From: the human T2T-CHM13v2.0 reference genome, Homo sapiens
DNA length: 64,000 nt
Assembly: GCF_009914755.1 (NCBI RefSeq)
Contig: NC_060947.1
Reading direction: 5' to 3' (one strand)
Shown here: positions 33,205 to 39,560 of the stretch, one piece after another
How positions within the stretch are numbered: position 1 is the stretch's first letter
Layout of the letters: each line of letters begins with the position of its first letter
Program-made: the position numbers and the translations under genes
Notes under the pieces: model-generated
What the model saw: only the letters and a program-made list of their open reading frames with translations
Told to the model about the DNA's origin: nothing
Databases searched by the model: none

Positions 33205-34901
33205 GTAATGTGTGATTCCTCTGTTGGACTGGACGTTGGGTGGATAGTGCTCCATTAGGCTAAACCTGCCAGAGGCCAGAAGAGCTTGCCAGAAAACAAG
33301 ATGTGCCAGATTGGTTGGCATCATGAAAATTCAGCCTTGCAGATGCTATGTGACAAATGAAATCTCATTCTAGGGTCAATTGAGTCATGGCCATTAAGAT
33401 AATAACAATATTAACATCTGCCATTCTTTCATTTCATGAGAAACATTTTAAAAATTTGAATCATTAATCAAGCAATGAGCTGTTATTTCCTCCCATAATT
33501 TTTCTTGGTTCAAGATAAACTCCAAAAAGGTAGAATATGTTAGATATGTCATCATAGTTCAAACAGCTAGGTTTCCAGTTTGGTAAGAAAACCAGCTCGC
33601 TCTTCGTATAAATAACGAAAATCACAAACTGAAAAAACAACATTATTAAAAAAAAAAAAGATATAACTTAAGTAACACTTTTCATCACCATGTATACTAA
33701 AATGATGGTCAAATTTTAAAATATATATTTAAAGCAGTTCGCCATTCTCTATATGTGTGTTAATTTCTTAATGACATGAGAGAAGGGGCTGCTTTACGTG
33801 AAATCAGATTCTATCCAGAGTTGTACTCCCAGGGAAACAAGAGGGACTTATATGTATTTAAAGTTTATAATTATTTAACATAAAGTTGTTGATAAATACA
33901 AAATAGGATAACTTATTTTGGTAACAGTTTTACCAGCCTGGACAAAATATGCCTGGATTACAATGGCTTTAAAGAATTGAATGAGATCAGCTACAAAATA
34001 GAACTTCATGAAATGGAAAAGATACAGGCACATAAAATATTTTTTAAATTCACTTCATGACAGTATTGATACCCAACAATCATGTTAATGTTAATACTGG
34101 TCATTTTACCCCCAAAAAATCAATTAATAAATATTCATTGTGTTTTCCATCTTAATTAGACTATACAGTGAATATTTATTAATCTCAACTAGATCACATT
34201 GCTCTATATACTCATGAATTATAGTTATTTAATGAACTATACAGATTGGTTGCACATGGGTCTTCGCTCCACTGTAAGGGACTGAGGAGTAATGTCTCCT
34301 TATGGTATTAATCATTTTCCCCAGTGGTTTTGTCTATGGTCTATTTGGTCTATTATCATTACCTAGCAGGTCAGATTCCAGCTTTGACAATGCCCTAACT
34401 TTCTGGAAGGAGCAGGAAAAAGGCCAGAGAGAGCACTGCCTTGGGATTGCCTTCCTAGGCTCTGTCTGGATGACACTCACCATGTGTTCTGGGTGCCACA
34501 GGTGCTGTGCCTCTGAGGAAAACTACAGAGTGTAGAGGTGTTGCAGCTCCTGAGCAGCTGTAATACTGTCTATCTGTCCAAGTATAATTTATTCCCTTGG
34601 CTTCTTCTGCTGAGCTACTGGGAAGTCCATGGGCATAACAACTAAAAGAGAAAAAGTTAGGTGTCTTTATTTCTTTTTGTCCAAGATGCCTTGATCCATC
34701 CTCTTTCCAGGATACATGGCCTACATAGGAGTTGGGCCTTATATAGGAAAGCTACAGAATCACTCCAGATGTTGTGTCTGGATTCACTTAATCTGGAGTA
34801 TTGCTCACACAAGCTGGTTCATTCTTTTAATTCATAACATTGAGTGTTTCTCTTTGTTTTGTTTAAAGTTCCTTCTGATATTACTTTGTTTTAATGTTCA
34901 G

Positions 34902-34966
34902 ATGCTAATCTGCATACTGCAGTCAATGAAGAGAAACACAGAGTTCCCACCTTCCCAGACAGAGTG
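34902..34966 (+). CDS. BMX: BMX exon 6 (Y)ANLHTAVNEEKHRVPTFPDRV
   Basis: TTCAG| and |GTAAGT, 65 nt, phases match neighbours. Confidence 0.95.
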
Positions 34967-35900
34967 GTAAGTCAACATTTTAAAAATGTTTTTCATGGTC
35001 AGGATATATTAAATAAACCAAGAGTTGCCAGATTCAAGACTAGAAAATGTGGAATTCATTTAGACTTCTCAGCAAAGAGAGAAAAACCATGAGCTCTAGA
35101 TAATAGCTATGGGTGGTATTGAATAGCGGATTCAAATATAGAACCATTGTAATATCTCATATTTTTGCATTTCATTGTTGTGTCTTTTCCTAGCCAGTAA
35201 GCCCATAAATAGTCACCAAAAAAAAAAAAAGAAAAAATGGGTGCATGCGGGAGATGTCCTTAAGATGGCATCACACATAACAGGCAGCTGTTATTAGCTG
35301 TCATTCTTTCCTTACCATCAACATGGCCAAGACTGCTTTGTGGAAGTATCCTGGTGTTGAAATGAAACTCTATAGGACAAAAGCAGAAAACAACATAATT
35401 CTTTCCCTCCATTATCCCTTCAAAGCTATTCAGTGGGCTTTCTTCCCTGCTTCCAAATAAAGTCTTTGCCAAATTCCATAGTTTTGCAGTCATTCTCAAA
35501 TGATAAAAATGTCCCCATTACTTGTAATCATAAGAACAGCCTCTGAATTGTTCCATCCAATGTTATTATCACATGACTGCAAACATCATTCCAAGTTAAA
35601 CATCTGTCACCTAGCTTGGGCCTGCATCACCTGGCAGCATGCTTTTGGGGAGGGATTTTGGGGGGGCTGAGATTCATGGCCCTTTCAGAGTTAGTTCCAA
35701 GGAAGATGAGGTCTAATTAAAAAAAGACACACATAGCTGTTTCTATCATGATTTGGTGGTGGTGGTATCGGAGTGAGTTTTCCAGCACTGATTCTTTATC
35801 TCATGGGAGACTTTTAGGAATTTCCTACTGAAGGGCAGATCCATATGTAGTTTTATGACAGGGGAGAGATCTTGATCCTCAGTTCTTGGATTTTCAGCCC

Positions 35901-35952
35901 TCAATCTTTCAAGATGGCTGTCAGCCAACTTTTTCCCAAGAGTGGAGTTGGC
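35901..35952 (-). CDS. ACE2: Antisense terminal-exon coding part (K)PTPLLGKSWLTAILKD*, probable alternative last exon of ACE2
   Basis: Minus-strand CTTAAT branch-like motif, GTTTTGTTTGTTTTCTTATAG| acceptor, 1 nt plus 16 codons plus TGA; phase and length fit a recalled 786-aa ACE2 isoform. Upstream ACE2 exons are outside the window. Confidence 0.65.
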
Positions 35953-36317
35953 CTATAAGAAAACAAACAAAACCTTGATTGCTCTGGTTAATTAAGCTGT
36001 ATGTAGCTCTCTCTCGAAGTACAGGCTACTGCTGTCTTTTTGCTCTACTCTCTTGGGTTCATAGCCACAGCCTTCTGTTTTTAGGGTTCCCAGGCAGGTG
36101 TGAGCCTCCTCAAATGCCAGGATACACAAAAAATGGCTTCCCATTGGTTCTCTGGAAGTTCACCTGAAAGCAAGGGGACATCTCCGCCCATCTATTGGAT
36201 CTATGGTGTCTTGGGTACTTATTTTCAGCTACACACATTCGCACACACTTCTCTCTTTCTAAGTAAAAGCCACATAATTTTCATGAATCAACATGAAAGA
36301 CAAAAATAATCCATTAT

Positions 36318-39318: not shown

Positions 39319-39560
39319 CTGAAGATACCTCGGGCAGTTCCTGTTCTCAAAATGGATGCACCATCTTCAAGTACCACTCTAGCCCAATATGACAACGAAT
39401 CAAAGAAAAACTATGGCTCCCAGCCACCATCTTCAAGTACCAGTCTAGCGCAATATGACAGCAACTCAAAGAAAATCTATGGCTCCCAGCCAAACTTCAA
39501 CATGCAGTATATTCCAAGGGAAGACTTCCCTGACTGGTGGCAAGTAAGAAAACTGAAAAG
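39319..39560 (+). CDS. BMX: BMX exon 7, duplicated 22-aa unit / atypical SH3
   Basis: CCAAAG| and |GTAATC, 242 nt; LKIPRAVPVLKMDAPSSSTTLAQYD...DWWQVRKLK. Confidence 0.96.

What the first reader, a model, noticed from the sequence alone, without database searches (positions are those of the whole stretch)
35150..35996. Antisense terminal exon in BMX intron 6 that would swap the ACE2 cytoplasmic tail
Seen directly on the minus strand: CTTAAT, a U-rich tract and TAG|, then G CCA ACT CCA CTC TTG GGA AAA AGT TGG CTG ACA GCC ATC TTG AAA GAT TGA. From established knowledge, ACE2 is the tail-to-tail neighbour of BMX. As I recall, its last intron splits codon 770 as 2|1, so this exon gives 770+16 = 786 aa, matching a recalled ACE2 isoform. 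That isoform would keep the ectodomain and TM helix but lose residues 771-805 (endocytic Tyr motif, K788, C-terminal PDZ-binding TSF). Its pre-mRNA would run antisense across BMX exons 7 onward. The 3' end is uncertain; only a variant AATGAA signal is visible near 35171-35176.
Basis: partly seen in the sequence, partly recalled or inferred. Interest (0 to 1): 0.85.

Follow-up and report, generated by a model that had tools for sequence, protein, structure and literature searches.

The report
Known alternative last exon of ACE2
This is the already annotated and published alternative final exon of human ACE2, lying backwards inside a BMX intron, which replaces the last 35 residues of the receptor's cytoplasmic tail with 16 unrelated ones; its function has barely been tested.

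Summary
On the minus strand a T-rich tract and an AG (35954-35953) precede an exon that starts at 35952 and reads one base plus 16 codons (PTPLLGKSWLTAILKD) and TGA. The ACE2 transmembrane exon, fetched from the same chromosome, ends ...AAG AA|GTAAGT. The canonical last exon supplies 35 residues after that codon, so 805-35+16 = 786. The start coincides with the RefSeq ACE2 exon 35170-35952 in the hub table. The isoform is in print: NM_001386259.1 (variant 3) / NP_001373188.1 (isoform 2), 786 aa, with a 16-residue novel end and an overlap with BMX. Its junction was confirmed by RT-PCR and Sanger sequencing in humanized mice. It is therefore not new. The sequence alone is unremarkable: 61 of 4423 minus-strand AGs have as good a pyrimidine tract, and 40% of frames after an AG stay open for 16 or more codons. 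No AATAAA or ATTAAA lies in or near the exon. Abundance, conservation, the true 3' end and function remain open. Interest is low.

The parts
35953..35996 (-). 3' end of the 45-kb last intron of ACE2 variant 3: candidate branch-point region (CTTAAT 35996-35991, TTAAC 35991-35987, and an A at 35976), a T-rich pyrimidine tract at 35955-35972, and the acceptor AG at 35954-35953
   Evidence: sequence; 15 of 18 pyrimidines at -20..-3, against 12 of 18 for the canonical last-exon acceptor; other AGs lie at -23, -31 and -33. The branch point itself is inferred, not shown.
35904..35952 (-). Coding part of the alternative last exon: base 35952 (G) completes the split Lys codon 770, then 16 codons encode PTPLLGKSWLTAILKD (residues 771-786)
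   Evidence: translation; donor phase 2|1; the hub table (RefSeq exon boundary 35952); (786 aa, last 16 residues differ).
35901..35903 (-). Stop codon TGA of isoform 2. It lies in the last exon, so the usual rule predicts no nonsense-mediated decay.
   Evidence: The decay statement is an inference from the established exon-junction rule.
35170..35900 (-). 731-nt 3' UTR as annotated. It holds a 20-nt T-run (35237-35218) and no AATAAA or ATTAAA.
   Evidence: Hub table (exon 35170-35952); lengths, hexamer scan; T-run.
35171..35176 (-). The only weak poly(A)-signal variant (AATGAA) near the annotated end. It abuts the end, so it cannot have directed cleavage at 35170. If it is used, cleavage would fall about 10-30 nt further on (35161-35141, for example at CA 35149-35148).
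   Evidence: position; the 30 nt downstream; 6 of the first 10 are A. The cleavage position is inferred.

Best explanation
Window 35170-35952 (minus strand) is the alternative terminal exon of human ACE2 transcript variant 3 (NM_001386259.1), which encodes isoform 2 (NP_001373188.1, 786 aa). To make it, RNA polymerase must run past the canonical last exon and its poly(A) signals (window-equivalent about 78990-78033). It must then continue about 43 kb antisense through BMX exons 19 to 7. The donor of the transmembrane exon (last base at window-equivalent 81003, phase 2|1) is then spliced over a 45,050-nt intron to the acceptor at 35953/35952. The protein keeps the ectodomain, the transmembrane helix and the nine juxtamembrane residues up to Lys770. 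Residues 771-805 are replaced by 16 residues read from otherwise non-coding intronic DNA. The isoform therefore lacks the Tyr781 AP2 motif, Lys788 and the TSF PDZ-binding end. The exon, phase, length, annotation and published junction are shown. It is inferred that this is a minor product, because the canonical exon is reached 43 kb earlier and ends transcription, and that its trafficking differs.
For: The start coincides with the RefSeq 'other transcript' exon 35170-35952 in the hub table. The ACE2 transmembrane exon was found with Pfam PF16959 in the window's own chromosome (101.9 bits), and its donor reads AAG AA|GTAAGT. The canonical last exon gives 35 residues ending in TSF, with introns of 2,012 nt against 45,050 nt. 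In passages of PMC10632133, NM_001386259.1 spans 83 kb, largely overlaps BMX and encodes 786 aa with a novel 16-aa exon. [quoted passage not shown] PMC7844112 and PMC12652772 list variant 3 / isoform 2 as 786 aa, and the latter states identity over 770 residues with a different last 16. The alternative acceptor has the richer pyrimidine tract (15/18 against 12/18). The exon region is single-copy in the genome search (1 match, to itself).
Against: I could not compare the 16 residues letter by letter with NP_001373188.1, because no tool here holds RefSeq proteins. The match rests on coordinates, phase and length. The RNA evidence I read comes from humanized mice, and I saw no quantification in human tissue. 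One airway study did not distinguish isoform 2 at all. There is no canonical poly(A) signal between 35952 and 34896, so the annotated 3' end at 35170 may be incomplete or an internal-priming end. The 16-codon frame is what non-coding DNA gives by chance, which argues against a selected coding function.
Confidence: 0.95

Rival explanations
1. The exon is real but is splicing and read-through noise. In this view it is a rare by-product of failed 3'-end formation at the canonical ACE2 poly(A) sites, captured by a chance strong acceptor in the BMX intron. The resulting isoform 2 protein would have no selected function. This shares the anatomy of the best explanation and differs only on biological meaning.
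For: The 16-codon open frame is the chance expectation: mean 17.3 codons, with 40% of frames reaching 16 or more over 4424 AG sites. Comparable acceptors are common: 61 of 4423 AG sites, 25 of them between 35953 and 64000. There is no canonical poly(A) signal. The alternative exon lies 43 kb beyond the canonical one. Reviews state that its role is unidentified, and it was not analysed in airway cells.
Against: It was detected in several tissues with a tissue pattern in mice carrying the human locus. NCBI curated it as an NM_ record, according to the accession quoted. A preprint cloned C-terminally variant ACE2 forms from human nasal epithelium and saw altered localisation, though I could not confirm that either clone is this isoform.
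Confidence: 0.5
2. Isoform 2 is a regulated, functionally distinct receptor form. On this reading the tail swap changes surface residence, recycling, ubiquitin-dependent turnover or shedding, and its antisense read-through interferes with BMX expression.
For: The lost segment carries validated elements. The PDZ-binding motif binds SNX27, and deleting it lowers surface ACE2. The K788R mutant is more stable. The Tyr781 motif binds AP2 mu2 weakly. The new tail has no Tyr, and its end fits no class I PDZ motif as defined. Two cloned C-terminal variants showed less plasma-membrane signal and more perinuclear signal in HEK293 cells.
Against: I found no direct functional test of the 786-aa form. The known tail elements predict opposite effects on surface level, so the net result cannot be predicted. 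Abundance is unknown, and transcriptional interference with BMX is pure inference.
Confidence: 0.2
3. The exon belongs mainly to an independent antisense non-coding transcript of the BMX intron, and the ACE2-joined model is a rare chimera or an annotation composite.
For: The 3' end is poorly defined and lacks a canonical signal. The intron is unusually long for ACE2 (45 kb against 2 kb).
Against: The exon begins with an acceptor, not a transcription start. A sequenced junction with ACE2 is reported. The hub table lists no separate gene here.
Confidence: 0.03

Closest known systems
ACE2 transcript variant 3 / isoform 2 (NM_001386259.1, NP_001373188.1)
   Same: The exon boundary (35952) and exon span match the RefSeq annotation in the hub table. 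Also matching are 786 aa, identity to isoform 1 over 770 residues with 16 different final residues, and the overlap with BMX.
   Different: Nothing found. Residue-by-residue identity of the 16 residues could not be checked here.
dACE2 / isoform 4 (interferon-induced alternative first exon)
   Same: It is another ACE2 isoform made by using an extra exon outside the canonical set, and it is reported alongside variant 3 in the same humanized mice.
   Different: dACE2 changes the 5' end and removes the spike-binding N-terminus. This exon changes only the cytoplasmic 3' end and keeps the whole ectodomain.
Engineered ACE2 tail deletions (ACE2-delta3, ACE2-delta34) and K788R
   Same: They remove or disable the same tail elements that isoform 2 lacks, namely the PDZ-binding motif, most of the tail and K788.
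   Different: They are laboratory constructs without the 16 new residues. Delta3 lowers surface ACE2 while K788R raises ACE2 level, so they do not predict the net behaviour of isoform 2.
Alternative last exons coupled to poly(A)-site choice (general class, from established knowledge)
   Same: One donor chooses between a proximal and a distal terminal exon, each with its own stop codon and 3' end.
   Different: The distal exon here lies inside a convergent neighbouring gene and has no canonical poly(A) hexamer.

Membership tests
ACE2 variant 3 terminal exon (RefSeq NM_001386259.1) | The exon start coincides with the annotated boundary and has a usable acceptor | tested here: met
   The AG at 35954-35953 lies directly before 35952, and the tract has 15 of 18 pyrimidines. 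The hub table gives the exon as 35170-35952.
ACE2 variant 3 terminal exon (RefSeq NM_001386259.1) | The reading frame continues from the ACE2 transmembrane exon | tested here: met
   The donor AAG AA|GTAAGT leaves two bases. G at 35952 completes Lys, then 16 codons and TGA follow.
ACE2 variant 3 terminal exon (RefSeq NM_001386259.1) | The product is 786 aa | tested here: met
   The canonical tail after the split codon is 35 aa. The published full length is 805 aa, so 805-35+16 = 786, as published.
ACE2 variant 3 terminal exon (RefSeq NM_001386259.1) | The last 16 residues are identical to NP_001373188.1 | not testable with these tools
   No RefSeq protein set is on hand. The papers I read state only that the last 16 residues differ from isoform 1.
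ACE2 variant 3 terminal exon (RefSeq NM_001386259.1) | The splice junction is observed in RNA | not testable with these tools
   No RNA-seq data are on hand. PMC10632133 reports RT-PCR and Sanger sequencing of the junction in humanized mice (passages and a figure legend only).
Alternative last exon with its own 3'-end signal | A poly(A) signal lies 10-30 nt before the transcript end | tested here: inconclusive
   There is no AATAAA or ATTAAA from 35952 to 34896. The only hexamer is the weak variant AATGAA at 35176-35171, abutting the annotated end at 35170. The hexamer list was recalled, not taken from a tool.

The most novel reading that the evidence does not exclude
ACE2 isoform 2 may be a lineage-restricted receptor form. 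It would be uncoupled from SNX27/NHERF recycling, AP2 sorting and MDM2-K788 turnover. Because making it requires transcription antisense across 13 BMX exons, ACE2 3'-end choice and BMX expression would interfere with each other in cells that express both.
Probability: 0.08. Interest if true: 0.45.

Novelty: already known. Interest (0 to 1): 0.12.

Why it matters
The exon itself adds nothing new, because it is in RefSeq and in at least three papers. Its practical relevance is modest but real in three ways. First, humanized ACE2 mouse designs differ in whether they include it. [quoted passage not shown] A 65.8-kb replacement bounded by mouse Bmx cannot contain it by position (my inference). Second, the isoform keeps the whole ectodomain but lacks every validated cytoplasmic sorting and turnover element, and no direct test of it turned up in my searches. 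Third, assays built on the canonical 3' exon or on C-terminal epitopes would miss it.

Tried and rejected
1. I searched the whole genome with the 1001-base region to see whether the exon comes from a repeat. Only the self-match came back. The tool skips very common words and scores only the best candidates, so an old diverged repeat is not excluded.

2. My first attempt to locate the canonical acceptor used a wrongly guessed 12-base pattern and returned meaningless coordinates and pyrimidine counts. One search repeats it correctly. The numbers are discarded.

4. I tried to tie the preprint clones vX1/vX2 to this exon through their primers. The primer table and sequence figure are images, so this remains undecided.

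5. I did not run the large protein searches (search for homologous proteins, the search of protein representatives). The tail is only 16 residues long. In a database clustered at 90% or 50% identity, isoform 2 would be merged with isoform 1, so a blank would mean nothing.

6. Conservation in other mammals could not be examined, because no vertebrate genome other than the window's own is held.

7. Several transcript and protein accession numbers were typed from recall. Those that hit gave only listings of ACE2 models, the airway preprints and the review already read.

Full report
**Observation.**
- CTTAAT lies at 35996-35991, followed by a T-rich tract.
- TAG has its AG at 35954-35953.
- The exon then starts at G 35952.

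With 35952 taken as the third base of a split codon, the next 16 codons (35951-35904) read PTPLLGKSWLTAILKD, and TGA follows at 35903-35901. AATGAA is at 35176-35171. The start coincides exactly with the RefSeq 'other transcript' exon of ACE2, 35170-35952, in the hub's table. That exon lies between BMX exons 34902-34966 and 39319-39560, which is BMX intron 6.

**Is it more than chance?** Not on sequence alone.
- Of 4423 AG dinucleotides on the minus strand of the window, 61 have at least 15 of 18 pyrimidines at -20..-3 with no internal AG. Of those, 25 lie between 35953 and 64000.
- The frame in the same phase after an AG stays open for 17.3 codons on average (median 12). It reaches 16 or more codons in 40% of 4424 sites.

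The 16 new residues therefore look like non-coding DNA read through until the first stop. The reality of the exon rests on annotation and RNA evidence.

**Testing the recalled phase.**
- The window holds no canonical ACE2 exon, so I searched the window's own assembly with the Pfam Collectrin model PF16959. The best match (101.9 bits, contig C23 15147002-15147205, minus strand) is the ACE2 exon encoding the transmembrane helix. Its open frame ends ...IFTGIRDRKK.
- Its DNA ends ...CGG AAG AA|GTAAGT. This is a consensus-like donor that leaves two bases of a Lys codon, so the phase is 2|1 as recalled. The last exon base is C23:15147003, window-equivalent 81003.
- The canonical last exon starts at window-equivalent 78990 after TTTAACAG. 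It reads G plus 35 codons ([35 protein letters not shown]) and TAG.
- With the published length of 805 aa, the split codon is residue 770. The alternative exon therefore gives 770 + 16 = 786 aa.
- The canonical last intron is 2,012 nt and the alternative one is 45,050 nt. By the hub coordinates the alternative intron contains BMX exons 7-19 in antisense.

**What is known.**
[quoted passage not shown] - Those authors set the boundary of their human payload to include it. [quoted passage not shown] A figure legend reports Sanger sequencing of the junction.
- Their reference 38 is Badawi and Ali 2021. That paper (PMC7844112, passage) lists variant 3 as isoform 2, 786 aa, and says the role of the isoform 'remains unidentified'. 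It describes the isoform as a plain truncation, which the sequence here shows to be inexact.
- A 2025 review (PMC12652772, passages) gives NP_001373188.1 as identical over 770 residues and different in the last 16.
- An airway study did not distinguish isoform 2 by RT-qPCR or at the protein level (bioRxiv 10.1101/2022.07.19.500631, passage).
- A 2020 preprint (10.1101/2020.07.09.190074, passages) cloned two predicted C-terminal variants from human nasal epithelial cultures. It saw weaker plasma-membrane staining and perinuclear staining in HEK293 cells. Its primer table and sequence figure are images, so I could not tell whether either clone is this isoform.
- Searches for the accession, for '786 amino', for 'ACE2 isoform 2' and for ACE2 with BMX turned up no direct functional study of the 786-aa form. 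This holds only for the open-access and bioRxiv library that was searched.

**How it most likely works.**
- *Shown:* one donor (81003) can pair with a proximal acceptor (78990) or with this distal one (35952).
- *Shown:* the distal acceptor has the better pyrimidine tract, 15/18 against 12/18.
- *Shown:* ATTAAA and AATAAA lie 89, 849 and 1,174 nt after the canonical stop.
- *Inferred:* the proximal exon is transcribed 43 kb earlier and carries those poly(A) signals. The distal exon can therefore be used only on transcripts that escaped both proximal splicing and cleavage, and it should be a minor product.
- *Inferred:* the stop lies in the last exon, so nonsense-mediated decay is not expected.

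**The 3' end is the weakest part.**
- No AATAAA or ATTAAA occurs between 35952 and the ATTAAA at 34895-34890, which lies just beyond the antisense of BMX exon 6.
- AATGAA abuts the annotated end, so it cannot have directed cleavage at 35170.
- Six of the ten bases after 35170 are A.
- The real end may therefore lie some 10-30 nt further on, may lie much further on, or the annotated end may reflect internal priming.

**Consequences for the protein.**
- The lost residues 771-805 include a weak AP2 mu2 motif whose binding is abolished by phosphorylation of Tyr781.
- They include Lys788, the MDM2 ubiquitination site, whose K788R mutant raises ACE2 level.
- They include the C-terminal class I PDZ-binding motif, which binds SNX27. 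Deleting it lowers surface ACE2.
- The new tail has no tyrosine, and its end does not fit the class I PDZ pattern quoted.
- Losing K788 and the endocytic motif should raise surface level, while losing the recycling motif should lower it. The net effect cannot be predicted and has to be measured.

**Other checks.** The 1001-base region matches only itself in the genome, so it is not an obvious young repeat. Old diverged repeats are not excluded. Conservation in other species could not be examined with the tools on hand.

**Verdict.** What remains open is whether the isoform matters: its abundance in human tissues, its true 3' end, its conservation and the behaviour of the protein. About half of my weight is on 'real but noise-level by-product', and about a fifth on a regulated functional isoform.

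Noticed in passing
window 34890-34895 (minus strand): The first canonical-type poly(A) hexamer (ATTAAA) downstream of the exon lies just past the antisense of BMX exon 6 (34902-34966). A transcript ending there would overlap a BMX coding exon.
   Followed up: partly
window 35218-35237: A 20-nt T-run (6 T, one C, 13 T) on the minus strand sits inside the annotated 3' UTR. On the plus strand this is an A-run within BMX intron 6, and it might be the tail of an old retroposed element.
   Followed up: no
L007 7793, 7033 and 6708 (window-equivalent 78793, 78033 and 77708), minus strand: Candidate poly(A) signals of the canonical ACE2 last exon: ATTAAA 89 nt, AATAAA 849 nt and ATTAAA 1,174 nt after the TAG stop.
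   Followed up: no
literature (PMC7844112): The 2021 review describes isoform 2 as a truncation that is '100% identical' to full-length ACE2. The sequence read here and two later papers show that the last 16 residues are different.
   Followed up: yes
literature (PMC11447706): The ACE2-GR mouse replaces only the 65.8 kb between Cltrn and Bmx, and the paper says this holds all known transcribed regions. By position it cannot include this exon inside human BMX intron 6, so that model should be unable to make isoform 2 (my inference).
   Followed up: partly
window 35746-35952 (minus strand): Another frame of the same exon is open for 68 codons from the exon start. The ACE2 donor phase does not use it, and I attach no meaning to it.
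   Followed up: no
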